A DNA stretch of 64,000 nucleotides from the IMG/VR virus record IMGVR_UViG_3300027852_000041, one strand, 5' to 3'. This document shows positions 11,629-55,582 of the stretch, one piece after another. The first letter of the stretch is position 1; each line of letters opens with the position of its first letter. The position numbers and the translations under genes are program-made. The DNA comes from a virus. Below the pieces are notes generated by a model. The model searched no databases. It saw nothing but the letters and a program-made list of their open reading frames with translations, and was not told the DNA's origin.

Positions 11629-13284
11629 TCATCTACCGGCAAATTTATTTAAAGGTGGACGGGCAAAATCTCTCTTTTTCCTCTTTACACATTCATATGC
11701 ACGCTCTTCCCTTGTAGCATAGATAGACCATCCGAGAGAATAAATTGAATCATCATGGTATTTAGTTTTTACCTCCGTATGCTCGGAACGCAGCTTGTTA
11801 TATTTCCCCGGATGCCCGAACTTAGGCAAAGAATTTAAGTCACCCTTCACTGTTTGCTCAAAATCATCAAATTCTTTCCTCAGAAAAGTTCTTCCTTCTT
11901 TGTCTTCCTCATCAACCATCAGCCCGTCAGGGATAACAAGCCTTCCTTTGTGAATCTGGTATAAATCGGTGAACATCGGAATCTGGCGATTATCAGTAGC
12001 ATGGATAAGTTCTGCCTCCATCCCCATGTCTTCAGCCCACTGGCATAAATCAGCAGCCTGGTAAACCTCAAAAACAGTATTGTCTATGCGATATTTTTTA
12101 AAATCTTCAAATATAACTTTTTTTAGACTATATTCGCCGTCTAACCCCTGTAAAAAAACAACTTGGTTCAAGATAATATAAAAAGGAAGAGGGGCGTCGA
12201 ATCCAGTCAACCATCCTTTAGCTGTAACAGTCCAAACACTCCTGTCCCCTTTTTTACTGTAAGGCAAAGACCTGTCAAGCCCGCCACCGATAATAAACTT
12301 TGTCTTAAAATCATGCTCAAGTGTTTTTATCTCTTCCTTCCCAATAGGAATCTCAAGGGTTTTCCCAACGGCAAAACATTCATCCAGATGTTCCTGCCCG
12401 AATAACTTACCCCCGGCGCCAATCCAGATATTACGATGGAAGGCATTATAGTCAGGCCCGGTAAGCTGTTTTTCCCTGCTGCTAAGCCAGGCCCTGGAAA
12501 TTAAAGGAGAGATATTATACTTAACATACTCTTTCGGCTTTTCAACTTTATCGGCAAGATAAACAAAAAATATCCGCTCATCTACCGGCGTTTCCCCTTC
12601 AATTTGAATCAGCTTCCCCGAACTTTTATCATGCTCATAAACAGGAGAACCGGCCAATTCCCACAGCTTATAAAAAATATTGGACTTGGGAGAAACCTGA
12701 GACGGCAAAATAATCTGTCCGTCCCTGTCACCCGTCTGGGAAGCAAGAACCTGATACAGCCCCTCCCCGTCAGGGGCAGCATGAATCTCGTCGACAACGG
12801 CAATATCAATAGGATACCCCCAGGAAGAAGCCTTCTCGCTCGAGACTACAACAACCTTGGACTGAGTATCAAGATTTCTTATCTCTTTATCAAGAATATT
12901 CTGTTCCCCAATCATCTCAAATAATTCAGGAGAATTCAAAATTATCTTCTTGATACTGTCAAAAGCTGTAGAAGCTGACTGTTCCCTGGAGTTTGAAGCA
13001 ATAACACTTTCAACATTATAAAACATCGAAAAGTTCCAGGCTCCCAATATCGCTGCCATAAAAGTCTTGGAGTTCCTTTTGGGCAAACCGAAACAGGCAA
13101 CGGTATATTTGTGGCATCTCTCCCCGTCAATTTCAATCATCTCGGTAGCTTCCCTCAACATCCACTTCTGGGAAGTCCAGGGGGATATCTTCTCTATCTT
13201 CCTCCGAACCGGGAAAAATACCAGGTCATTCACCCACCACACAATGTCCTTCTGGTACAACTCTATCTGTTTTTGTGTAAGCAT
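11629..13284 (-). CDS. terL: Terminase large subunit
   Basis: 551 aa. Walker-B-like VVDEIHAAPDGEGLY and an N-terminal P-loop-like GLPKRNSKTF. Size and a nuclease-length C-terminal half are typical. Confidence 0.8.
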   Translation of the reverse strand: MLTQKQIELYQKDIVWWVNDLVFFPVRRKIEKISPWTSQKWMLREATEMIEIDGERCHKYTVACFGLPKRNSKTFMAAILGAWNFSMFYNVESVIASNSREQSASTAFDSIKKIILNSPELFEMIGEQNILDKEIRNLDTQSKVVVVSSEKASSWGYPIDIAVVDEIHAAPDGEGLYQVLASQTGDRDGQIILPSQVSPKSNIFYKLWELAGSPVYEHDKSSGKLIQIEGETPVDERIFFVYLADKVEKPKEYVKYNISPLISRAWLSSREKQLTGPDYNAFHRNIWIGAGGKLFGQEHLDECFAVGKTLEIPIGKEEIKTLEHDFKTKFIIGGGLDRSLPYSKKGDRSVWTVTAKGWLTGFDAPLPFYIILNQVVFLQGLDGEYSLKKVIFEDFKKYRIDNTVFEVYQAADLCQWAEDMGMEAELIHATDNRQIPMFTDLYQIHKGRLVIPDGLMVDEEDKEGRTFLRKEFDDFEQTVKGDLNSLPKFGHPGKYNKLRSEHTEVKTKYHDDSIYSLGWSIYATREERAYECVKRKKRDFARPPLNKFAGR

Positions 13285-16246: not shown

Positions 16247-16269
16247 TTATCCTCTTAGTTATCCTCTTA
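16247..16269 (+). repeat. Tandem direct repeat TTATCCTCTTA x2 (12-bp period)
   Basis: Copies at 16247..16257 and 16259..16269, inside a 540-bp non-coding AT-rich region. Confidence 0.8.
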
Positions 16270-16345
16270 ATAATTGCAAGAATCATGCCGGGGGTTAAGC
16301 TCATGAATTTAAAGAGGAATCTCCGTTGAAAAAAAAAATAACAAA

Positions 16346-16438
16346 TAGCATATTATGCTAAGAGGGTTAGCACCTCGTGCTAATAGCGTTAGCATATCGT
16401 GCTATTTGATACCCAATAACAAACAGCATGCCGTGCTA
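16346..16438. promoter_or_regulatory. Array of four TAGCA-N5-TGCTA palindromes (operator/iteron-like)
   Basis: TAGCATATTATGCTA at 16346..16360, TAGCACCTCGTGCTA at 16368..16382, TAGCATATCGTGCTA at 16390..16404 and cAGCATGCCGTGCTA at 16424..16438. The first three are spaced exactly 22 bp apart. CGTGCTATTTGATA occurs twice. Confidence 0.75.
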
Positions 16439-16750
16439 TTTGATAAGTGGGAATATGATTAAATAATCAGTCGATTTTAATCTTTTGCCCGTGTAAGTTG
16501 TAACCTTTTTTTTAATGAAATTTTTATCAACTAAAATGTTTTTTGTATTTGTGATTGATCTTAGAGACAGCCCGGTATTTTCTTGTAACTCATGGTCTTC
16601 GCAATAGAACCACCCGCCGTTCTTGTCTCCTTTGTATTTCTGGCTGTAAAGCTCAATAAATAGTATTCTGGCAATCGGTGGCAATGTTATGAATTCTTTG
16701 GCGTGTAATAACTCATCTATTTCTAAATTAACATATTTTTTCTTTTTCAT
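16436..16750 (-). CDS. Winged-helix DNA-binding protein (replication-initiator/organiser-like N-domain)
   Basis: 104 aa. The layout resembles the N-terminal part of the 30604..31440 protein (LSLRSITNTKNILVDKNFIKK versus LYRVIKHLVKLNFLSK). Its stop codon lies inside palindrome 4. Confidence 0.45.
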   Translation of the reverse strand: MKKKKYVNLEIDELLHAKEFITLPPIARILFIELYSQKYKGDKNGGWFYCEDHELQENTGLSLRSITNTKNILVDKNFIKKKVTTYTGKRLKSTDYLIIFPLIK

Positions 16751-16968: not shown

Positions 16969-17127
16969 GCTGTTTCCTTTCTAAATATCCTACCACCTAT
17001 AGACAGCCAGCACCGAAATCACCACAATATGTTGTAAAAACGCCGTTAAGGGGGCAAGGTTGGACGATCTCGCTTCCTGACTTGTCATTATACCTCTTTA
17101 CTCTTTTTAATGGCTTATTTTGGCGGT

Positions 17128-17568
17128 TTAACCGATAAAAAGCATATCATCTGAAATAGTCCGGTTATTAACCGTGCAAACCGGGCAAATTCTCAGCCCA
17201 CCCCAAGACATAAATTTTTTGTCACACTGCCGGCAAAATCGGAACTTTCCTTCTTCCTGTGGGAGTTCAAATTCCCCGTCAACTTTTTCCCTCTCCCTTG
17301 CATCCCCCCGTGTGATCTTTTCTCGGTCCCTCTTATTTTTTTCCTGACAAACTGGGTGGCCACAGGTCCGGGCGTCTCTTCTCCCCAGGAGCAATCTTTT
17401 TTTGCAGTAAGGACACAATTTTCCCTCTTTGTTCTTGTATTTCCGGTTTTTCTTTCCCCCTCCGCTGCTATGTTGAAAAAGGCACTCCGGGTTTCCGCAG
17501 GTCTTTGCATCATGTCTATTTACAAGCGGCCTTTTCCCGCAGTAAGGACACATTTCTTTTTTACTCAT
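17128..17568 (-). CDS. Protein with duplicated zinc-ribbon modules
   Basis: CPYCGKRPLVNRHDAKTCGNPEC and CPYCKKRLLLGRRDARTCGHPVC, plus a C-terminal CRQCDKKF...CPVC. Start set to ATG 17568 (RBS GGAAGGG). Confidence 0.6.
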   Translation of the reverse strand: MSKKEMCPYCGKRPLVNRHDAKTCGNPECLFQHSSGGGKKNRKYKNKEGKLCPYCKKRLLLGRRDARTCGHPVCQEKNKRDREKITRGDAREREKVDGEFELPQEEGKFRFCRQCDKKFMSWGGLRICPVCTVNNRTISDDMLFIG

Positions 17569-17842
17569 CAACCGCCCTTCCGGATTCCCGCACCATTTTT
17601 ATTAATTTATCACAATCTTTGCCGCTCCTTCTGATTTTTTCCCTTTTGCGCTTCAGCTTGATCAATTTATCATGCCTTTTTTTTCGTATCAATTTTTGTA
17701 TATCTGAACGCAATAAAAGCTTTAACGGTGGGACTTCGAACACCTCCAATTCTGTCCGTGCTATATGGTGGTAGATATTTGTGCGCCTGCAGCCCATCAA
17801 GTCCGCTGCTTCGGGAAAACTTATGTATTTTTTCAGCTTCAT
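17561..17842 (-). CDS. Excisionase/MerR-type HTH DNA-binding protein
   Basis: 93 aa. ISFPEAADLMGCRRTNIYHHI fits the HTH_17 pattern. Basic tail. RBS GGAGGG. It is the first minus-strand gene beside the divergent control region. Confidence 0.6.
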   Translation of the reverse strand: MKLKKYISFPEAADLMGCRRTNIYHHIARTELEVFEVPPLKLLLRSDIQKLIRKKRHDKLIKLKRKREKIRRSGKDCDKLIKMVRESGRAVDE

Positions 17843-17861
17843 CTGTACCCTCCGATTTTTC

Positions 17862-17891
17862 TTGACAATATTGAATAGCTCAAGATATAAT
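17862..17891 (+). promoter_or_regulatory. Consensus sigma70-type promoter (early, rightward)
   Basis: TTGACA at 17862..17867, 18-nt spacer, TATAAT at 17886..17891. It points into the plus-strand gene block. Confidence 0.65.
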
Positions 17892-17931
17892 TAACTATAT
17901 AATAACCACTCCATAGTTGTCAATCTTTTTT

Positions 17932-18440
17932 TTACCACATATAGACACCACCTTAAAAGTGTTGCATTTTATGAAAAATATTATTACTTGTAAAGTCCCT
18001 GAAATAGCACATCTTCAGACTTTCAGCGAATTGAACTTCCCGAAAATTAAAAAAGTGTTGCAGGTTATATCTATCTATAGACATGCAATACCTTTTGAGC
18101 AAAACGATTGCAGGATTGCAACGAAAATAAGCGGTGATTTCCCAAAATTACCATATATAGACATGTCCTTTCAAGATGGGACAATTTTCCCCATGAGTAT
18201 GTTCAGCAAAGTCAATGATACCGGGGTTCTTCATATTTTCTTAAAAACAGGGACTATTTGCCATACCACATATAGTGTTCCTCTGATTTTTTGGGGAATT
18301 TTGTCCCACTTTTTTTGCTGTTTTTTGTACTCATTTTACTTGCAAATTTTAACCCACCTACATATAGACATACTAAAAAAATATAATACATTATATGGGA
18401 AAGGTGCTGTGTTGGCACGACTAATGCAATTATATAGAGG
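17932..18440 (+). repeat. Dispersed same-orientation copies of TACCACATATAGACA in the early leader
   Basis: Core ATATAGACA at 17939..17947, 18155..18163 and 18362..18370. Variants at 18075..18083 (CTATAGACA), 18270..18278 (ATATAGTGT) and 18431..18440 (TATATAGAGG). An extra copy TACCACCTATAGACA lies at 16991..17005. Confidence 0.75.
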
Positions 18441-18483
18441 TAATTGCGGGGCATGATGCCCGGCTTAACAAGGAGGAAAAGCA

Positions 18484-18888
18484 ATGGAAGAAGTAGGAAA
18501 AAGAGCAGCAAAAGTTATTGATGTTTTAGTAGAGGGGCTGACTTATTCAGATGACAACAGCAGCAGAAAGATTGATAATTCCTCTTCTATGGCGGTACAC
18601 GTTGAAATAATCGGCACTGTCGGAAACGCCAAAGACCTCATCAGCATTGCCCATTATTATGAGCAAAATGGCGACCTGATGCGTGATCCCGACATGGTTT
18701 TTTTACGGGCGGCTCCTTCCCGATATTATCCTGTTTCCTTTCAACAAGATGGAGGAGTCCCGACTTTTCAGGAAGCAATTTTATTCGAGGACGGAAATCT
18801 TAAGAGTTTCAGAAAAACGCTAGGCCGGCAATTGGTATCATTCGCAAATAAATGGATGGTGAACATTAAAGCGCAGCAAAATCTTTAG
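18484..18888 (+). CDS. First early gene, unknown function
   Basis: 134 aa. RBS AGGAGG. The motif HYYEQNGDLMRDPDM recalls a conserved plasmid/phage leading-region family, but this is unverified. Confidence 0.65.
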   Translation: MEEVGKRAAKVIDVLVEGLTYSDDNSSRKIDNSSSMAVHVEIIGTVGNAKDLISIAHYYEQNGDLMRDPDMVFLRAAPSRYYPVSFQQDGGVPTFQEAILFEDGNLKSFRKTLGRQLVSFANKWMVNIKAQQNL

Positions 18889-30617: not shown

Positions 30618-31440
30618 TCCAATCCCCTGGTTTTCTAAAATAACAACGGATGAGTATAATGAAGCATTCCAGTTTTTACAACAGGCAGATGGCCTGTATT
30701 GGAAAGTTCTTATGGCTGCACAAGCAAGAGCAAGCAGGAAAAATAATAAATTAACCGGATTAGATGAATGTGAGTTTTATCTTTCCCAAACGGAAACGAG
30801 GTCTTTTGGGTTGGAAGATTCTCAACACGGGAAACTGTATCGGGTGATAAAACACTTGGTAAAATTAAATTTCTTGTCAAAAGTAGGTAACAAAACAGGT
30901 AGCAAAAATGCTGCCGTATATCGTTTGAATAAAGGCTTTATGGGGCTTTTAGATTTTCAAATAGGTAGCGAAACAGATATCAAACAGGTAGCAGGCAGGT
31001 ATCAAACAGGTAGCAGGCAGGTAGAAAATAAGAATGTATTAGAGTGCAAAAGAGTGAATAAGAATGATCAGACAAAAGAAAAAAAAGAAATTAAAAAAGA
31101 AAAAGAAATTTTAATTTTACCAGATTTTTTAGATGAAAAACTTTGGAATGATTTTATAAATTTTCGTATCAGTATAAAAGCTAAGATGACTCATAAAGCC
31201 AAAGAACTTGCCATTAAAAAATTAACCGGTTTTCATGAGCAAGGTGAAAACATCTCCGGCATAATAGAGCAAAGCATAATGAACGGGTATAAGGGACTTT
31301 TCTTAGTAAATAAAGGAAATAACAATGGACGAAATTCAAGCAGCGCAGGATCGACTAGAGAAGAAGCGGGGAAAGCTCAAAGTGATGACGAACCCTACCC
31401 CGCACCTGAAGTCTTCCCAGCCGATGAAGGTTATTCTTGA
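30604..31440 (+). CDS. Replication organiser/initiator-like protein (wHTH N-domain + DnaD/phage-Rep-like C-domain)
   Basis: 278 aa from ATG 30604. C-terminal FLDEKLWNDFINFRISIKAKMTHKAKELAIKKL...IIEQSIMNGYKGLF is typical of phage replication-organiser C-domains. Iterons lie inside the gene. A DnaC-like gene follows. Confidence 0.55.
   Translation: MQKANPIPWFSKITTDEYNEAFQFLQQADGLYWKVLMAAQARASRKNNKLTGLDECEFYLSQTETRSFGLEDSQHGKLYRVIKHLVKLNFLSKVGNKTGSKNAAVYRLNKGFMGLLDFQIGSETDIKQVAGRYQTGSRQVENKNVLECKRVNKNDQTKEKKEIKKEKEILILPDFLDEKLWNDFINFRISIKAKMTHKAKELAIKKLTGFHEQGENISGIIEQSIMNGYKGLFLVNKGNNNGRNSSSAGSTREEAGKAQSDDEPYPAPEVFPADEGYS
30979..31022 (+). repeat. Perfect 22-bp tandem duplication ATCAAACAGGTAGCAGGCAGGT x2, within a wider AGGTAGC iteron cluster (30883..31024)
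   Basis: Units at 30979..31000 and 31001..31022. Further AGGTAGC cores lie at 30897..30903 and 30963..30969, and AGGTAAC at about 30884. Confidence 0.8.
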
Positions 31441-48697: not shown

Positions 48698-51600
48698 TTA
48701 ATAAATTTCTTTTCTTGTCCGCTTTTTTTTATAGAAAAACAAATGTTCAATTCCTTCGTCCATAGCTTTCTGCATATCTTTGTGAGCTAAATACCCCGGC
48801 ACAAAAAGAAGAAGAGAAGACCACGCCTCTTTCCTGTATTTTTTTATATTTCTTTTGTCCCCAACGCCTACAGCTTGCAAAAACTTGGCAAGAACGATGA
48901 GCTTGGAAGGAATAACCCCGATCCCGGTAGGAATAACACCGAGCAAAACAGTTTTTAAATAATCGTAATCAAAGTTTTTCGCTACAAAAGCCAATATCGC
49001 CCATTGGATAGCGGTTCTCGCAGCCTTATCTCCCTTTCTTTCTTTTACTGTTCTATGCATGTGGTCAAAATACCACATACACCAAGAGCTATACTGCCCC
49101 ATTAATTTTCCTGTAGGCGATTTAAAAAAAACAGGCAAGTCTATTCCGTATCCCCACTGTGTATTTGTGATAGCTTTCTCCCCCGCCCTTATTAAATCTT
49201 TATCGGAAGCATTCGGATTTCTTTTTTTGGCAACCATATACCCGGTAGCAAAAGCAGTTTTAACATTATCTACGTCAGCCGCTCGGTAAAATACCATCAT
49301 CGCGTCCCTGGCCTTGTCCCCGATATCGGTTATCCCTGAAATTTTTTCTTCCCAAACCTGATATTGTTTTTTCCTAATTTGCACTAAATCAGACAACTCC
49401 ATCGCTATTTTGACTTCCTGGTTCATCCGTCCAGCAGTTCTACCTTTGAGATAGGGGATTAGCTTATATTCATTAATAATAAGCCATTGCTGAAGTGCGT
49501 TTCTTATCCCAAGTTTAGGTCTCAGCCCCATAAAAGAAGAATAGTTCGCGCTTTGTAATTCATGAACAAAGGTACGATAAAGCCTTGGATTCTGGGAAAC
49601 ACTAATCCCTGCCTTTTTGAATATTTTTTGAGTTGTTTTTTCATTGGCAACTTCAATACCCCTCATTAGCCTCGAAATTGCAACATCTCCAACCTTCTCG
49701 TCTTTTGTCGGGTGTTTTTTAATAACTGTGTTAATCCAGCTTTGGGCGAAAGTCTTTTTTTGTTCATTAAACGAATCCAGAAGCGGCTGTATTTTTTCAA
49801 TAGCTTCTTCCCCGTATTTATGCCTGAACCCAACAGTTATGTAACTTTGCAACAACCGTAAAGAATCCTTTTCTGTCTTGGAAAGCTGCCCTGTTCTTGC
49901 GTGTTCAGCCCAAAAATCAAACTTTACCGCCCCCTGCGGAGAAAAAACCCAGTTGACAAGTTGAGTTTTATTCTTGAAAGATGGCCTTCGAGGGTTATAT
50001 TTCTCAATATAAGCTTCTATCTCAAAAACTTCCCAAAGATTATCATATATTTTTGACACGGCATTACTGGCACGTTTTTCTTCATTGCTTAACTTTTCCC
50101 CAGGCAATCTTCCTTCCCTGAACTCCGTTATTCTTCTTCTGCTGGCTTTCCCCAAACCTTTAAATATTTTTTTAGATTCTTCATATAAGGGATGGGAAGA
50201 TTCCTGAACCTTTAAAGCCATGTGCCTGAAAGGGGCTATAAATTTTTCTCCGAAAATCCTTTTAACCGGCGTAAAATAGGGAAAAATAACATCTTCTCCT
50301 GGCCGTATTTCATTAGTTATTTTAATAAACTCAACAATATCCTTAACCTCTGACTCTTTTAAGTAATCCCCTTTCTGGTACTGTAAGGCATAATCTATTA
50401 AATCAAGATCATCAACATCATAAATTCTAATAGCTCTTTCCAGTTTTTCTTTTGTCTTTTTTGAAATAGCAGCACTTTTATCAATTTCTTTAAAACTTTC
50501 AACGCCATGCAGTACTACTTTCTCTCTATCCATAATAAGAAGTTTTAATATGTCTGCTTCTTCCCTGTCTAATTCTTCTACCGTAGTCGCTTCTCTTGTG
50601 CTTGATCTAACAATATCGTCAATATCTGCCTTGGTTAAATTTTTCGATTCTGCGAGTTTATGAATTTCCTTAATATCTTTTCCGGTGATAGCCTCTCCTG
50701 CTTCTTCCCAATCTTTTATGGCCTTTCTTGTCTCTTTCCGTTCCTTTCTTTTGCTTATACCCTCGATAACTTCTTCGTAAACTGTCTGGACTTCCCGGCC
50801 TTTCTTTTTTAAGGCATCAATAACCGCACGGGCTTCTTTTATATCCATGCCGGCCATGCTTTTTATCTTGCCCAAAGCTTCAATTTTAGCGGCGTCAAGG
50901 TCTTCCTTAACAGGGGCAAGACGATGGGCGAGTGCCTTTAAGTGGTTGAGTTCTTTTTTCTCTTTTTTTGATAATGGTTTCTGTGGTTTTGCCCCCGGCT
51001 CTTTTTCAACAGCATATTTTACCCCAACCTTTTTCCCAGCTTTCTTAATCTTCCCCGTCTCAACAGCCCTTTTCCCTTTTGCCAACCACCCCATCAATTC
51101 AGAGTCAGTAACTTTGAAATTGAATCCCATCTTACGCAACCAGACTTTGATAGAGCGAAGTACACGCCTCATCAATGGCGTGTTATCGTTTATCTTAGCC
51201 ATACGCCCTAATTTTTCTTTTACGGCATCCCTGCGCCCTTTTGCGGTGTTTAAATCGAATTTGTAATCTTTGGCTACTTTATAGAGATTCGTGGCTGGAA
51301 CATCTTTCCCGGAGTCAAATATCGCTTTATCTTTTGCTATAAATGATTTCCATATCTGGTCGTAAAACTTTTTGCCTACTATTTTTTCAAGACCGGCATG
51401 GTTAAAGGTTTCATGTGCCAAAGTCTGGAGAGCGTCATCAACGCTTTTAAGATTCTTGCTAAGAAGAAAAACTGTATTTTCTTTTGAGTCATAGAAACCT
51501 TTGACAATTTTGCCTTCTTTCGCTTGCTGGCTAACTCTGTCTTGGTGTTGCAAAGGAAGCTCACTGATATCTTGCGCAACTTTGACGTGGGGCGTCACCC

Positions 51601-54600
51601 CTGCAACTTTTTTCCATCTGCTGATAATAGGATTAATGGCTTTGTTTATATCCGCAATCGGGGTTCCGGTAGCAGGTTTCTTTTTAGGCGAAACTACTGG
51701 CCTTGTCTCCAATGCAAATTGCGGCTCTGCTTTTTCTTCTTTTACCTCATACCCTTGATCAACCGCTTTTTTAATAGAAGTCTGGAAAGTGGTATATTTC
51801 CCTTTGAGTTTGAGAATATCCTTGGCGGCGTCAACTTTCAGAACCTTGAATTGCTTGCCTTTATAGGTTATCGTATCGCCTTTTTTGTAGGGGCGGGGAG
51901 GTTTTGTTGCGGCAGGCTTAGCAACTTCGGCAGGTTTTTCTTTGGCAACTTTTTTCTCTTTTTTTACTCCCGGCAATTCAGGTGCTTTCGGTTCTTTCTT
52001 TTTAAAAAGTTCGGTTTCTTCAATTGGTTTAGCCTTTCCATCAACTTTTATTCCGCCTTCAGGAAGTTTGGGCCGTCCTAAATCTACATCTAAAACTTGC
52101 TGAACTGGTTTTTCTTTTTTTTTCTTTTCTTTCTGGGCAACTAATTCAAGCCCAGCTTTTTCTGCTTTTAATTCTTCCTTCATTTCATCAAAAAAATCAT
52201 TCAGTTCTTTTATGTTTTCCGAGGGGATATTTTCCTCTGCCGCCATTTCGCTGACAACTTCTTTTTTAAGCTCGGCTTCAGCAATTTCTTTATCTCGTCT
52301 ATATTCTTCCGATTCTGTCCATTCTTTTCCATAAGCATCCTCCAACACTTTCCCGGATTTATATTGTCTTAAATTCTCATCTAATAAATTCCACAAATCA
52401 GTTATCGTACTATTTTCTTGAAGATATCCTTCCTCTTCAAGCCTTGAACGCAAGTCATCCGGTTTCCTTCCTGACTTCCTATTTACGAGACCAGGATAAC
52501 CACCCTCTTTAATGGAAAATTTTGTTTGTTCCCCCCTCGCATAATCGGGATGAATGCCACCTTCTCTCTTAACAAAAAGAAGAATTTCGGAACCAGCTTT
52601 TTCAGGAGGAGGTTCTTTTCTCGCTACTGTTGGTTTTTCAACAGCCTCCCCCTGCTTCTCTACTTCTTTCCACTCTATGGCTTCCCGGTAAAATTGCCCT
52701 CTTGTCGCTTCGTCAGACAACGCCTGCAAATCATCAGTAGACTTGTCTTTCTTCCCCCTCATCTCGGTGAAGCGTTCATTGCTTTCCTTTTTAAGCCGTG
52801 CCAATTCCCCCATCTGTTCAGGAGTGGCTTTCTTGCCGAACTCAAGAGCTTCGTTGGTTGACTTAAGTTCGGGAATGGCAGGGCGTTTTTCTTTGGCTTC
52901 AGCAACCTTCTTCTCTGCCGCAGGCAGTTCTTTTGTCTTCCCAACTATCTTCTTAAATTCCGGGAATTGCTTAACTAAATCTGGCCTGCTCTCAGCAATT
53001 CCTTTAACCATATTCGGCAAAGAACTGAGGGTGTGAGTATCAAGTTTTAAATCAGCAACATCAGTGCTGGGACCACGGACGATAATAGAACGAACATGCT
53101 CCGAAAATAATGGATTTTCCATTAAATCGGCTACAACAGAAGCAGGAAGATGATGCCGCCCACCATTAACATCCTTTATTCCCAACATTCTATCGCCATA
53201 TTTTTTAACCATTCCACGTAAATCATGTTCACCAGTAATATAAGAATCATAACCATGCTCAGGTTTTTTGTCCCACGGTACGATTCCCACCCCTGTCTCT
53301 TGCTTGGGAAGAATTTCTTTTGTTTCTGGTGCAATTATTTCTGACAATTTCTTGCCAGTTGGCTTGAAAAGAAGAAGTTCCTGGTCCGCTTTTGAAAGTT
53401 GGTCAAATAAAGAAAAAATTTGAGACACTGATTCTTTAGGATTTTTCTCGAAGTTTTCCGCATATCCAGGACTATCTTTTTTAAGCAACTCAATATTTCT
53501 TTTTACAACATCATTAAGCTGAGATTTTTCTTTGCTATTCGATAAGGTGTACATCAAATGCCCTATTTCATGCAAATAAGTCTTGTCTATTTCAGAAGCA
53601 TTAGGGTTAAGCCTTATCTTGCCTGTTTTGGTTACGGCTCCATCTTGGGACAATTCAAAAGTATGCGGTTTGTCAATTACAATCTCTTCGATGCCTACGT
53701 TTTTGGATAATTTTTCCGCAACCGGATTTTCAGATAAAGCAACTAATGTCTTTGTCGCCTGCGGTGAGGTAGGGAAGTTAAAGGTAGTTTTAATTTTCGT
53801 CGTAGGCTCTTCTACCTTCTTTTCTACTTTAGGGGCTAATTTGGGAAGTTTGGGGGCTTCCTGTGGAAGTTTTTCTTCTGCCGCTATCCTGGCTTTTATC
53901 GCAGGAGTTTCCGCTGCTATTTTTTGTCGTATTTTCTTTTCATGTTCGAGTTTAGCTTTCTCAAGCCTTGCTTCTCTTTCAAGTTTCCTTTCTTTCGCAA
54001 TTTCTTCTTCTGTTTTTTCTACAGGCTTAATGTATTCTTCACTAATTTTCTCTGGCAAAAATTCTGTTGGCTTTTTTACTTTTCTGCCAGAAATATCTTT
54101 CTTGGCTTTTATCCTTGGGGTTTCTTCTCTTATTTTTCGCCGTATTTTTTCCTCATGTTCCCGGTTTGCTCTTTCTAACCTTTCTTCTTTTTCTATCCTT
54201 CTTTCTTCAATTTTTCTTTCAGCAGTAGCTTTTTTTTCAGAGACCTCTTTGGCCCCTGCCACGCCCTTTAAGGTTTCCCCAAGTTTTATCCTTGCGGCTT
54301 TTAGCAAATCTTGCTGACGCTTGAGTATTTCTTGTCTTGCTTTGTCTTTCTGCGCTCTTGCTTCTTTTAATTTTTTGGCAATAAGAATTTCTGCTTTTCT
54401 TATTTGCTTTCTCTTTGATTGTACTCTCGATGTGTTGGCTTGCCCCATGCCAGCACCTAATAAAGCAAGAGGTAAGACAACAGTCCCTTCGTAAGCACCT
54501 TCCTTTAAAGCTTCAGGCAACTCGCTTAAAAAAGTATCAAGATTTGTAAGCATTTTTTTATCAGGATTCAAAGCAAAAAGATTTGTAAAAGCTTCTGGAA

Positions 54601-55582
54601 TCGCTTGCGCTGTTTCTGTTAACCATTCCGTTCCGCCTGCTTCCACCATTCTTCTAATCTTTTGAATCAAATTTTTTTGTGGTTTCCATGCTTTCATTAT
54701 TTTGGAAACCCCTAACCCCTCCAAGCTACTTTGGGTTAACGCATTTACTAAAGAATAAATAAAAGCACGTTCCGGTTTTGCCCCTTCTTCCCTTAGAGAC
54801 AAATATTGCGACCCCATAATTTGGGAACCAATAAAACTTATCCCAAGAGCAGGGTTAAGAATGCTTGACCCAATCAATGCCCCAAATTGTGGAATTTGGC
54901 CAAAAACATCTTCAAGCCACCCAGAACTTGTTTTGTATTTTTCAGGAATTTGCAGTGCCTTAGATTGTATTGTTTTTCCCAACAGTGGCTTAATATCATA
55001 TTGCTGGCCTATTGCTCCCGGACGTGGCTCAAGAGGTTGTATCGCAGTCTCATCATATTGCTGGCCTATTGCCGCTGTTTCAGGAGGCATTACCCCTCTC
55101 TCTTCATACAGTGTACCCCTTGTGCGCTTTTCCCTTAAAGATTCTTGAGCTTCGATACCTCCCAAAATAGAACCCAAAGCTCCGGTGGCTATTCTTTTTG
55201 TTTCTGCTCCTATTCTCCCAGCAACTCTGCCTAAAGTTAAATCAGGAGTTTTCGGCTCAAGCTCTGATAAATCAATTCCAGTTTCCTCGTATATCCCCGG
55301 CCTTATCTCCTCAAACCCATAGACGACACCATCTTCCTCATATGTCTCAGGAGTTTTCGGGTTAAGCATTGAATACTGCGCCTGCACAAAATTATTTTTT
55401 ACTTTCGCCTGTTTTTCAGCAGGGAATGCCTTAAACGCATCATCAGAATAATATTCGTCAAAATGGCCATGAAGAGCTTTTTCTTTCTGGTCGGGAGGAA
55501 GAACCCGAAATTCTTCATCTTGTTCCCATTCTTGGAGAATATTGTCTTCTTCTTCCCCTATGTTCTGTTGTGGTATTGGCAT
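48698..55582 (-). CDS. Giant (2294-aa) polyvalent virion/ejection-type protein with two HExxH motifs and a C-terminal membrane-active region
   Basis: HEIGH at nt 53558..53572 and HETFNH at nt 51398..51415. A long K/E-rich region contains an internal duplication. The C-terminus is hydrophobic (AILAFVAKNF...GVIPTGIGVIPSKLIVLAKFLQAVGVG). Its position after the smaller internal-protein-like genes follows T7 gp14-16 logic. Confidence 0.7.
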   Translation of the reverse strand: MPIPQQNIGEEEDNILQEWEQDEEFRVLPPDQKEKALHGHFDEYYSDDAFKAFPAEKQAKVKNNFVQAQYSMLNPKTPETYEEDGVVYGFEEIRPGIYEETGIDLSELEPKTPDLTLGRVAGRIGAETKRIATGALGSILGGIEAQESLREKRTRGTLYEERGVMPPETAAIGQQYDETAIQPLEPRPGAIGQQYDIKPLLGKTIQSKALQIPEKYKTSSGWLEDVFGQIPQFGALIGSSILNPALGISFIGSQIMGSQYLSLREEGAKPERAFIYSLVNALTQSSLEGLGVSKIMKAWKPQKNLIQKIRRMVEAGGTEWLTETAQAIPEAFTNLFALNPDKKMLTNLDTFLSELPEALKEGAYEGTVVLPLALLGAGMGQANTSRVQSKRKQIRKAEILIAKKLKEARAQKDKARQEILKRQQDLLKAARIKLGETLKGVAGAKEVSEKKATAERKIEERRIEKEERLERANREHEEKIRRKIREETPRIKAKKDISGRKVKKPTEFLPEKISEEYIKPVEKTEEEIAKERKLEREARLEKAKLEHEKKIRQKIAAETPAIKARIAAEEKLPQEAPKLPKLAPKVEKKVEEPTTKIKTTFNFPTSPQATKTLVALSENPVAEKLSKNVGIEEIVIDKPHTFELSQDGAVTKTGKIRLNPNASEIDKTYLHEIGHLMYTLSNSKEKSQLNDVVKRNIELLKKDSPGYAENFEKNPKESVSQIFSLFDQLSKADQELLLFKPTGKKLSEIIAPETKEILPKQETGVGIVPWDKKPEHGYDSYITGEHDLRGMVKKYGDRMLGIKDVNGGRHHLPASVVADLMENPLFSEHVRSIIVRGPSTDVADLKLDTHTLSSLPNMVKGIAESRPDLVKQFPEFKKIVGKTKELPAAEKKVAEAKEKRPAIPELKSTNEALEFGKKATPEQMGELARLKKESNERFTEMRGKKDKSTDDLQALSDEATRGQFYREAIEWKEVEKQGEAVEKPTVARKEPPPEKAGSEILLFVKREGGIHPDYARGEQTKFSIKEGGYPGLVNRKSGRKPDDLRSRLEEEGYLQENSTITDLWNLLDENLRQYKSGKVLEDAYGKEWTESEEYRRDKEIAEAELKKEVVSEMAAEENIPSENIKELNDFFDEMKEELKAEKAGLELVAQKEKKKKEKPVQQVLDVDLGRPKLPEGGIKVDGKAKPIEETELFKKKEPKAPELPGVKKEKKVAKEKPAEVAKPAATKPPRPYKKGDTITYKGKQFKVLKVDAAKDILKLKGKYTTFQTSIKKAVDQGYEVKEEKAEPQFALETRPVVSPKKKPATGTPIADINKAINPIISRWKKVAGVTPHVKVAQDISELPLQHQDRVSQQAKEGKIVKGFYDSKENTVFLLSKNLKSVDDALQTLAHETFNHAGLEKIVGKKFYDQIWKSFIAKDKAIFDSGKDVPATNLYKVAKDYKFDLNTAKGRRDAVKEKLGRMAKINDNTPLMRRVLRSIKVWLRKMGFNFKVTDSELMGWLAKGKRAVETGKIKKAGKKVGVKYAVEKEPGAKPQKPLSKKEKKELNHLKALAHRLAPVKEDLDAAKIEALGKIKSMAGMDIKEARAVIDALKKKGREVQTVYEEVIEGISKRKERKETRKAIKDWEEAGEAITGKDIKEIHKLAESKNLTKADIDDIVRSSTREATTVEELDREEADILKLLIMDREKVVLHGVESFKEIDKSAAISKKTKEKLERAIRIYDVDDLDLIDYALQYQKGDYLKESEVKDIVEFIKITNEIRPGEDVIFPYFTPVKRIFGEKFIAPFRHMALKVQESSHPLYEESKKIFKGLGKASRRRITEFREGRLPGEKLSNEEKRASNAVSKIYDNLWEVFEIEAYIEKYNPRRPSFKNKTQLVNWVFSPQGAVKFDFWAEHARTGQLSKTEKDSLRLLQSYITVGFRHKYGEEAIEKIQPLLDSFNEQKKTFAQSWINTVIKKHPTKDEKVGDVAISRLMRGIEVANEKTTQKIFKKAGISVSQNPRLYRTFVHELQSANYSSFMGLRPKLGIRNALQQWLIINEYKLIPYLKGRTAGRMNQEVKIAMELSDLVQIRKKQYQVWEEKISGITDIGDKARDAMMVFYRAADVDNVKTAFATGYMVAKKRNPNASDKDLIRAGEKAITNTQWGYGIDLPVFFKSPTGKLMGQYSSWCMWYFDHMHRTVKERKGDKAARTAIQWAILAFVAKNFDYDYLKTVLLGVIPTGIGVIPSKLIVLAKFLQAVGVGDKRNIKKYRKEAWSSLLLFVPGYLAHKDMQKAMDEGIEHLFFYKKKRTRKEIY

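What the first reader, a model, noticed from the sequence alone, without database searches (positions are those of the whole stretch)
16991..18483. TACCACATATAGACA motif repeated 6-7 times in one orientation across a 590-nt leader downstream of a consensus early promoter
A perfect TTGACA-18-TATAAT promoter (17862..17891) fires into about 590 nt with no convincing gene before the first early RBS at 18484. Within this leader the 15-mer or close variants occur at 17932, 18071, 18148, 18263, 18354 and 18431, plus one copy at 16991. AAAAGTGTTGCA also occurs twice (17955..17966 and 18049..18060). The motif falls in two different frames of the open 179-aa ORF, so the conservation is at nucleotide level. 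Possible roles are repressor or activator operators at the divergent switch, antitermination or RNA-binding-protein sites on a long leader RNA, or a non-coding decoy RNA.
Basis: seen in the sequence. Interest (0 to 1): 0.6.

Follow-up and report, generated by a model that had tools for sequence, protein, structure and literature searches.

The report
Conserved repeat array in phage switch
A 15-base DNA word repeated five to seven times, always on one strand, in a gene-free stretch between the early and late genes of an uncultured phage is real and kept by evolution, and is most likely a row of docking sites for a regulatory protein, an ordinary kind of phage control element whose reader is still unknown.

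Summary
TACCACATATAGACA and close variants occur at 16991, 17933, 18069, 18149, 18264 and 18356, with a core-only copy at 18432. All lie on the + strand and far exceed chance. The 586-nt stretch after the consensus promoter is non-coding. Its ORF has no homologues, is not kept in relatives, shows no codon-position bias and has neutral strand skew.

Two relatives keep the module: a 4-kb metagenome contig and a complete 67.5-kb IMG/VR phage. The shared parts are an HTH gene, a zinc-ribbon gene, the promoters and a leader with three copies. Between window and relatives the 15-mers are 80-93% identical. The spacers sit at shuffle level (58-67%) yet keep their lengths (121/124 and 65/65 nt).

Two near-consensus promoters fire face to face, and a conserved antisense promoter overlaps a sigma-54-like element just before the first early gene.

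The most likely reading (about 0.4) is an array of DNA sites for a sequence-specific protein. The adjacent HTH_17-like protein is the best candidate. It would gate early rightward against leftward (late) transcription. RNA-level, host-factor/sigma-54 enhancer and packaging readings remain open.

This is an ordinary kind of element, and this scan has reported similar motif arrays in other phages.

The parts
16991..17005 (+). Outlying 15-mer copy TACCACCTATAGACA, between the zinc-ribbon gene and a 37-aa ORF / wHTH module. The relative L274 has no copy here.
17128..17571 (-). 147-aa protein with three CxxC zinc-ribbon units. It is conserved next to the leader in L083 and L274 at 37-47% identity.
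17561..17842 (-). 93-aa HTH protein, an HTH_17 (excisionase/MerR-like) look-alike and the first gene of the leftward operon. Its N-terminal 56 aa are 57-59% identical in L083 and L274.
17862..17891 (+). P_R, the rightward early promoter TTGACA-18-TATAAT (12/12). It is kept in L083 and L274.
17894..17923 (-). P_L, the leftward promoter TTGACA-18-TATAGT (11/12). It faces P_R and the two start sites overlap. It is kept in L083 and L274.
17933..17947 (+). 15-mer copy A, TACCACATATAGACA. It is syntenic with copy 1 of the relatives.
17955..17966 (+). AAAAGTGTTGCA, repeated at 18051-18062 and in degenerate form at 18101-18114. It occupies the position where the relatives carry AAAAGTGTCCCA / AAAAGTGGGACA.
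17987..18017 (+). 31-nt block, 87-90% identical to the relatives. It is the only long conserved stretch between copies A and B.
18069..18083 (+). 15-mer copy B, with the core CTATAGACA and a degenerate left half. It is syntenic with copy 2 of the relatives.
18149..18163 (+). 15-mer copy C, TACCATATATAGACA.
18177..18308 (+). 17-nt inverted repeat TGGGACAATTTTCCCCA / TGGGGAATTTTGTCCCA, 88% complementary with 98 nt between the arms. It encloses copy D and is followed by a T-run, so it looks like a terminator on the + strand. The relatives carry GGGACA/TGTCCC inverted repeats.
18264..18278 (+). 15-mer copy D, TACCACATATAGTGT, degenerate at its 3' end.
18356..18370 (+). 15-mer copy E, ACCTACATATAGACA. 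It sits 50-51 nt before the TTGGCAC element in both the window and L083.
18390..18418 (-). P_as, the antisense promoter GTGCCA-17-TATAAT (10/12). L083 has GTGCCA-17-TATAAT and L274 has GTGCCA-17-TAAAAT, while the spacer sequence has diverged. Its -10 is half of the palindrome ATATAATACATTATAT (18381-18396).
18413..18428 (+). Sigma-54-like element TGGCACGACTAATGCA, one mismatch from TGGCAC-N5-TTGCW. GG-N10-GC is kept in L083 and L274. It overlaps the -35 of P_as.
18432..18440 (+). Core-only copy ATATAGAGG. It is kept in L083 but not in L274.
18446..18464 (+). Hairpin GCGGGGCATGATGCCCGGC just before the RBS. The same type of hairpin precedes other early genes in L083, L084 and L274, and marks where the variable early cargo begins.

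Best explanation
The 15-mers are DNA docking sites for one sequence-specific protein. They form a co-oriented array inside a gene-free control region of a probably virulent phage that uses the host RNA polymerase.

The region holds two strong host-type promoters that fire into each other. P_R runs rightward to the early genes. P_L runs leftward to HTH, the zinc-ribbon gene and then the roughly 39-kb late block. A third, antisense promoter (P_as) lies at the far end.

Inferred mechanism. A protein bound at the sites has two effects. It blocks or slows polymerases coming from P_R, since the sites lie from about +35 to +470. It also favours leftward transcription, since the same sites lie just upstream of P_L and at +13 to +27 of P_as. 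Early expression is thereby switched towards the leftward, late unit.

The best candidate reader is the adjacent small HTH_17-like protein, possibly acting with the zinc-ribbon protein. These two genes and the leader travel together as a module while the early genes downstream differ.

Shown: the motif, its conservation, its non-coding setting, the promoters and the module synteny. Inferred: that binding is at DNA level, which protein binds, and the direction of the effect.
For: - **Enrichment and strand bias:**, 0 of 100 shuffles, 2 hits in L083 against 0.09 expected.
- **Restricted distribution:** the motif is confined to the leader in the complete relative genome.
- **Selective conservation:** window against L083 gives 15-mers 0.93/0.80/0.93. 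Spacers score 0.58-0.67, against a shuffle mean of 0.56-0.59. Spacer lengths are 121/124 and 65/65.
- **Copy number changes:** five or six copies against three, as in binding-site arrays.
- **Non-coding setting:**
  - the ORF has no homologue but itself;
  - L083 against L274 differences by codon position are 9/10/9, with 16 non-synonymous to 6 synonymous, while the HTH control gives 12/10/21;
  - skew is neutral and GC is 34.8%.
- **No RNA signal:** there is no Rfam family and no marked RNA stability.
- **Promoters:** P_R, P_L and P_as are predicted at homologous places in all three genomes.
- **Module synteny:** HTH and the zinc-ribbon gene always flank the leader, and the first early gene differs in each genome.
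- **Candidate reader:** the HTH looks like HTH_17. From general knowledge, that family often binds asymmetric sites in direct repeat.
- **Not the replication origin:** the lambda-type origin iterons lie elsewhere, inside the O-like gene.
Against: - No binding data exist, and only two independent lineages are available (L083 and L274 leaders are 91% identical).
- The recognition helix of the HTH differs between window and relatives (RRTNIYHHIA against GRTHIYYIAA) while the motif is unchanged. That fits a host factor, or a more conserved phage protein, better.
- Site spacing of 80-137 bp is not helically phased. It is much wider than in known HTH_17 direct-repeat arrays.
- Pfam does not place the HTH in any family at threshold, and the AF2 model is poor.
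- P_L is near consensus, so the HTH would be made at once. Immediate shut-off of early genes would be odd.
- The uniform orientation could simply be a legacy of duplication.
Confidence: 0.4

Rival explanations
1. The sites serve a host factor or act as an enhancer. A conserved host DNA-binding protein (nucleoid protein, global regulator or activator) would bind them. Together with the GGGACA inverted repeats they would act as upstream elements of a sigma-54-type promoter (18413-18428) that drives the early genes. P_R transcripts would stop at the terminator-like hairpin with its T-run (18292-18328).
For: - The motif is unchanged between phages whose own regulators have diverged.
- GG-N10-GC, with one mismatch to TGGCAC-N5-TTGCW, is kept in all three genomes while its spacer is fully diverged.
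- The proximal 15-mer lies about 50 nt, and an inverted repeat about 95-120 nt, upstream of the TGGCAC element in both the window and L083.
- A second 28-nt sigma-54-like element sits at 16263-16290 on the minus strand. It shares a perfect GCAATTATWWAGAGG and lies downstream of four phased palindromes.
- A terminator-like site lies before it on the + strand.
Against: - One-mismatch sigma-54-like sites occur at shuffle frequency, about 1 per 69 kb, in 1.24 Mb of other loci. The window hit alone is therefore not significant.
- Neither the window nor the complete relative encodes an enhancer-binding protein.
- TTGGCAC is equally well explained as the -35 of the conserved antisense promoter.
- Enhancer sites are normally palindromic, and the 15-mer is not.
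- The host is unknown.
- The terminator-like call is not reproduced in L083.
Confidence: 0.15
2. The element acts at RNA level. The word would be read on a transcript as a site for an RNA-binding or antitermination factor. On the P_R leader it reads UACCACAUAUAGACA. On the leftward P_as/P_L transcript it reads UGUCUAUAUGUGGUA, and in that direction all copies, including 16991, are sense. A sponge RNA is a variant of this reading.
For: - All copies are co-oriented, and every one, including 16991, lies within the path of leftward transcription from P_as/P_L.
- The roughly 39-kb leftward unit would plausibly need processive antitermination. This is my inference from the architecture.
- Terminator-like elements and alternative GGGACA/TGTCCC pairings occur in the leader.
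Against: - Folding energies are close to shuffles (z -1.45, -1.87 and -0.66).
- The copies sit in no consistent structural context.
- There is no Rfam match.
- Conservation of spacer length without spacer sequence points to DNA geometry.
- No RNA-binding protein was recognised.
Confidence: 0.15
3. The array is a packaging (pac/cos-type) or replication-linked site. A small-terminase-like HTH protein or a replication factor would recognise it, at the head of the operon that contains the terminase.
For: - The HTH has an N-terminal HTH followed by a long helix, which resembles small terminases.
- Some Atlas neighbours carry Terminase_5 together with HTH_17.
- No small terminase has been identified by family searches.
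- In both phages, origin-like repeat modules sit just beyond the zinc-ribbon gene.
Against: - The HTH homologues in the relatives are only 60 aa and lack the long helix.
- A conserved 193-217-aa gene lies directly upstream of TerL, the usual small-terminase position.
- The O-like initiator has its own iterons and an A-rich tract inside its gene.
- The sites are not tandem or phased like iterons.
- The 49-bp terminal repeat of the relative contig looks like a circular-assembly overlap (my inference), so it says nothing about the true genome ends.
Confidence: 0.12
4. The region is coding, or partly coding. Either the 179-aa ORF or a short leader peptide containing CxxPEIAHLQ would be translated, and the motif would be incidental.
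For: - An ORF stays open through the 31-nt conserved block in all three genomes. Four of the six variable sites in the block fall at third codon positions.
- L083 has GGAG 8 nt before its ATG.
Against: - The ORF is 161-179 aa in the window and 59-60 aa in the relatives.
- There is no homologue.
- There is no codon-position bias over the whole ORF.
- Skew is neutral.
- The window ATG has no Shine-Dalgarno sequence.
- The 4-of-6 pattern is not significant (about p 0.1, my calculation).
- The motif falls in two frames.
Confidence: 0.06

Closest known systems
Operators and stoperators of Cluster A mycobacteriophages (L5 gp71, TipsytheTRex repressor; PMC9283540)
   Same: Both have asymmetric 13-15-bp sites in several copies with one orientation. 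In both, the sites lie downstream of an early promoter, where a bound monomer could stop elongation.
   Different: Stoperators number more than 20 and are spread through the genome in short intergenic gaps of temperate phages, and a 183-aa two-domain repressor reads them. Here the sites cluster in one 450-bp leader, with one outlier. The complete relative has no integrase, and no gp71-like protein was seen.
Direct-repeat site arrays of small HTH_17 / excisionase-like proteins (lambda Xis X1-X2, BldC and similar; from general knowledge)
   Same: A small HTH_17-like protein is encoded next to co-oriented, non-palindromic sites.
   Different: Known arrays are packed head to tail at about 10-20 bp and act in recombination or local promoter control. 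Here the spacing is 80-137 bp and there is no attP or integrase.
Face-to-face lytic/lysogenic promoters of P2 and 186 type phages, with Cox/Apl direct-repeat boxes (from general knowledge)
   Same: Two strong promoters fire into each other, and a small HTH protein with multiple co-oriented boxes could tip the balance.
   Different: Those phages are temperate and also encode a C/CI repressor, and their boxes are closely phased. None of this is seen here.
Q / AlpA type promoter-proximal antitermination (PMC9371919)
   Same: A strong constitutive promoter is followed by a terminator-like element ahead of a long operon.
   Different: Q and AlpA use one binding element inside the promoter plus a -10-like pause site. 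Here the motif is multi-copy, lies beyond +35 and carries no good -10-like hexamer.

Membership tests
Cluster A mycobacteriophage stoperator system | Asymmetric site of about 13 bp | tested here: met
   The 15-mer is not self-complementary, and all copies lie on the + strand.
Cluster A mycobacteriophage stoperator system | More than 20 sites dispersed in intergenic gaps across the genome | tested here: not met
   Sites occur only in the leader plus one outlier in 64 kb. The 67.5-kb relative has two exact copies, both in its leader.
Cluster A mycobacteriophage stoperator system | Orientation tied to the direction of transcription | tested here: inconclusive
   The orientation is uniform, but the region is transcribed both ways (P_R against P_L/P_as).
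Cluster A mycobacteriophage stoperator system | Temperate phage with an immunity repressor | tested here: not met
   The complete relative has no tyrosine integrase. The Pfam and PHROG scans found no repressor family.
Sigma-54 promoter with enhancer | GG-N10-GC core matching TGGCAC-N5-TTGCW | tested here: met
   There is one mismatch in each of the window, L083 and L274.
Sigma-54 promoter with enhancer | The match is more than chance would give | tested here: inconclusive
   Such sites occur at shuffle frequency in 1.24 Mb of other loci. Conservation across two lineages is the only support.
Sigma-54 promoter with enhancer | An AAA+ enhancer-binding protein is available | tested here: not met
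   The six-frame translation has no GAFTGA or Walker motif. The complete relative has no PF00158 match. A host protein could not be tested.
Sigma-54 promoter with enhancer | The host has rpoN | not testable with these tools
   The host is unknown and no genome is held for the window.
Iteron-type replication origin | Tandem, helically phased direct repeats beside an A/T-rich unwinding region and an initiator gene | tested here: not met
   Spacings are 136, 80, 115 and 92 bp and are not phased. Classic 22-bp iterons with an A-rich tract lie inside the O-like gene at 30893-31110.
HTH_17 / excisionase direct-repeat arrays | The adjacent protein belongs to HTH_17 | tested here: inconclusive
   Pfam gives nothing at threshold. 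Atlas features score 0.92, and structure TM is 0.6-0.75 to HTH_17 clusters.
HTH_17 / excisionase direct-repeat arrays | Closely packed head-to-tail sites, with a recombinase partner | tested here: not met
   Spacing is 80-137 bp and there is no integrase.
Known structured RNA family | A match to an Rfam model, or clearly stabilised folding | tested here: not met
   Rfam gives nothing relevant. Folding z-scores are -0.66 to -1.87.

The most novel reading that the evidence does not exclude
The early genes of this virulent phage are started not by the consensus sigma-70 promoter but by a host sigma-54-type promoter at 18413-18440. A mirror copy at 16263-16290 points the other way. The 15-mers and GGGACA inverted repeats would then be its enhancer, read by a host activator. 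The phage would thereby tie its early programme to a host signalling state, and P_R would make only a short non-coding RNA.
Probability: 0.1. Interest if true: 0.7.

Novelty: new member of a known kind. Interest (0 to 1): 0.35.

Why it matters
Repeated asymmetric sites at a phage early/late switch are a familiar theme, so the main value is descriptive. The work defines a compact, portable control module in an uncultivated phage lineage with no cultured relatives. The module comprises an HTH gene, a zinc-ribbon gene, face-to-face promoters, the motif array and an antisense promoter. If the reader protein were found, the array would be a simple test bed for orientation-dependent control of elongation in a virulent phage. 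The sigma-54-like elements, if real, would be more unusual.

Tried and rejected
- **Cultured relatives.** There is no DNA or protein match for the region, the HTH or TerL in 50,697 phage records.
- **Distant DUF6908 loci.** In the 32 viral loci scanned for repeats, nothing comparable lies upstream. None of the 192 loci (32 viral, 80 metagenome, 80 genome) except L083 carries the HTH or zinc-ribbon genes.
- **Exact 15-mer scan of IMG/VR.** It returned 50 chance-level single hits. One jumbo-phage contig (L038) carries the word inside an unrelated palindromic repeat, which I judged a coincidence.
- **Two-copy pattern scan.** It returned noise plus the known relative.
- **Promoters for an injected phage RNA polymerase.** Rejected. 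The 2294-aa protein has no Pfam, PHROG or PDB match, has no DxDxD motif and carries HEIGH. The relative has no sigma-70_r2 match.
- **The motif as a sigma-70 promoter.** Rejected. A -35-like hexamer at 17 nt occurs only beside copies A and E of the window and is not conserved (my reading).
- **DnaA, IHF, Spo0A and PhoB box resemblances.** I checked these by eye, and all are too poor.
- **Literature.** A search for the word itself found only primers.
- **L273.** It matches TTGGCACG-N6-GCA-N3-ATATAGAGG exactly but is otherwise unrelated. By my estimate about 0.1 chance hits were expected, so it is not informative.
- **Structure of the HTH.** The AF2 model was too poor for a fold search.

Full report
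**Setting**

The window is most of a roughly 66-kb phage contig. It carries these genes:
- On the minus strand: TerL at 11629-13284, a portal/adaptor, a Mu-gpT-like capsid protein and an internal virion protein.
- On the plus strand, a block from 18484: DUF6908, a RecE-like exonuclease, an O-like initiator, a DnaC-like loader, a dCTP deaminase and a Mom-like gene.

Strand skew flips at about 17.9 kb. No cultured phage is related.

A complete 67,497-bp IMG/VR genome (L274/G001) has TerL at 91% identity, structural proteins mostly at 65-95% and mosaic early genes. It lacks a tyrosine integrase, an enhancer-binding protein and a sigma-70 family sigma factor. The lineage is therefore probably virulent and uses the host polymerase. 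Its 49-bp 'terminal repeat' looks like an assembly overlap, which is my inference.

**The observation**

With up to three mismatches, TACCACATATAGACA gives seven hits in 64 kb. Five cluster between 16991 and 18370, all on the + strand. Shuffles average 1.03 and none of 100 reaches seven. The core [A/C]TATAGACA adds the copy at 18075. Degenerate copies lie at 18264 and 18432.

Over the twelve copies in the three genomes, the right half of the word (A5, T8 to A15) is almost invariant. The left half (TACCAC) varies more. This is my tabulation.

**Not coding**

- The 161/179-aa ORF finds only itself among 5.8 billion proteins.
- The relatives have only a 59-60-aa ORF in the same place.
- Between L083 and L274 that ORF differs at codon positions 9/10/9, with 16 non-synonymous and 6 synonymous codons. 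The neighbouring HTH gene gives 12/10/21.
- The leader has GC 34.8% and no strand skew. The flanking genes have skews of 0.15-0.26 in magnitude.
- A 31-nt block (17987-18017) keeps an open frame, CxxPEIAHLQ, and four of its six variable sites are at third positions. This is not significant.

**Conservation**

L083 is a 4-kb metagenome contig whose DUF6908 is 87% identical. L083 and L274 both carry the same module: a zinc-ribbon gene, an HTH gene, promoters and a leader with three copies. The L083 copies are TACTACATATAGACA, CATATATAGACA and TACCACATATAGACA.

The two relatives are 91% identical to each other here, so they count as one lineage. Comparing window with L083:
- The 15-mers are 0.93, 0.80 and 0.93 identical.
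- The A-B and B-C spacers are 0.67 and 0.58 identical, against a shuffle mean of 0.59.
- The spacer lengths are kept, at 121/124 and 65/65 nt.

So the word and its spacing are under constraint while the sequence between copies has randomised. The window has two extra copies. The whole relative genome has exact copies nowhere else. The first early gene differs in all three genomes. In each it follows a GC hairpin of one type, which looks like a cassette junction.

**Anatomy of the switch**

The scan finds three promoters at homologous places in all three genomes.

| Promoter | Strand | Window coordinates | Window sequence | Score | In the relatives |
|---|---|---|---|---|---|
| P_R | + | 17862-17891 | TTGACA-18-TATAAT | 12/12 | 12/12 in both |
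| P_L | - | 17923-17894 | TTGACA-18-TATAGT | 11/12 | 11/12 in both |
| P_as | - | 18418-18390 | GTGCCA-17-TATAAT | 10/12 | -35 and -10 kept, spacer diverged |

P_R and P_L fire face to face and their start sites overlap.

The array is therefore three things at once: downstream of P_R, upstream of P_L, and inside the path of P_as. Read leftward, every copy, including 16991, has the same sense as the leftward unit. On a circular map that unit runs about 39 kb through all the structural genes.

The + strand also carries a sigma-54-like TGGCAC-N5-TTGCW overlapping the -35 of P_as. It has one mismatch, at a different place in each genome, and a diverged spacer. Such one-mismatch sites occur at shuffle frequency elsewhere, so conservation is the only support.

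A 17-nt inverted repeat with a T-run (18177-18328) is terminator-like on the + strand. The relatives have GGGACA/TGTCCC repeats at corresponding places.

**What it most likely is**

The following point to a DNA-level array of protein-binding sites, and I give that reading about 0.4:
- The word is kept, and the spacer lengths are kept without their sequence.
- Copy number changes between genomes.
- RNA stability is unremarkable (z -1.45, -1.87 and -0.66), and the RNA context of the copies is inconsistent.
- There is no Rfam hit.

The adjacent 93-aa protein is the natural candidate reader. It resembles HTH_17 proteins, although Pfam does not reach threshold. It and the zinc-ribbon protein are the only genes always linked to the leader. 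Against this, its recognition helix differs between window and relatives while the word does not, which would suit a host factor.

The proposed action is inferred from geometry only: hindering P_R elongation and favouring leftward transcription.

**Rivals**

- Host factor or sigma-54 enhancer: 0.15.
- RNA-level site on either transcript: 0.15.
- Packaging or replication signal: 0.12. This is weakened by clear iterons inside the O-like gene and by a conserved gene in the usual small-terminase position.
- Coding: 0.06.

**Comparison with known systems**

The closest known systems are the asymmetric operators and stoperators of Cluster A mycobacteriophages (PMC9283540). Others are the direct-repeat arrays of small excisionase-like proteins, the face-to-face switches of P2/186-type phages, and Q/AlpA antitermination (PMC9371919). 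The element fails at least one defining feature of each (see the membership table), so I do not file it as a member of any of them.

This scan has reported comparable motif arrays in the early regions of other uncultured phages, so the kind is common.

**Verdict**

It is an ordinary kind of thing whose reader and direction of action are unknown. Interest is 0.35.

Noticed in passing
window 17862-17923: Two near-consensus sigma-70 promoters (12/12 and 11/12) fire face to face with adjacent -10 boxes and overlapping start sites. The arrangement is kept in both relatives.
   Followed up: partly
window 16263-16290 (-) and 18413-18440 (+): Two copies of a 28-nt sigma-54-like element (xGGCAyGAyTnnTGCAATTATwwAGAGG) lie in inverted orientation. 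Between them is the 2.2-kb control module: palindromes, wHTH, zinc-ribbon gene, HTH, promoters and leader. The 15-nt part GCAATTATWWAGAGG is perfect in both copies and occurs nowhere else in the window.
   Followed up: partly
window 16340-16440: Four palindromes of the type TAGCAC-N4-GTGCTA lie just downstream of a 104-aa winged-helix protein with weak RepL / replication-initiator similarity (16436-16750). A 400-nt A/T-rich stretch without ORFs follows. The module looks like a replication origin and is absent from the relative L274.
   Followed up: partly
window 30893-31110: A lambda-type origin lies inside the O-like initiator gene. There are two tandem 22-bp iterons, CAGrTATCAAACAGGTAGCAGG, a third AAACAGGTAGCA, and then an A-rich tandem repeat.
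   Followed up: no
L274:2780-3400: In the relative phage, the non-coding stretch after the zinc-ribbon gene holds tandem repeats of about 89 bp. These carry the O-type iteron ACAGGTAGCA and AATAGGTAAC words. It is a second origin-like array, at the place where the window has the 16991 copy and the wHTH module.
   Followed up: no
window 18446-18464; L083:1047-1066 and 1665-1683; L084:125-146; L274:1634-1654: GC hairpins of one type (GCSGGGCA...TGCCCGGC) sit immediately before the RBS of successive early genes. They mark where the early gene content differs between relatives, so they look like cassette junctions. They may relate to the hairpin family that another report on this genome read as attC-like.
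   Followed up: no
window 48698-55582 (-): A 2294-aa protein sits among the virion genes with no Pfam, PHROG or PDB match. It has an HEIGH metallopeptidase-like motif near residue 672 and long charged, lysine- and glutamate-rich tracts (seen by eye). It is probably a large internal or ejected virion protein.
   Followed up: partly
L038:170-420: An unrelated 333-kb phage contig carries the identical 15-mer twice inside a 45-nt repeat, paired with an inverted copy. The word is therefore part of a palindrome upstream of a gene there. I judged this a coincidence.
   Followed up: partly
L273:4850-5640: An unrelated viral contig has three good sigma-54-type elements and a 16-bp-arm palindrome about 150 nt upstream of one of them. 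This looks like a real sigma-54/enhancer region on viral DNA.
   Followed up: no
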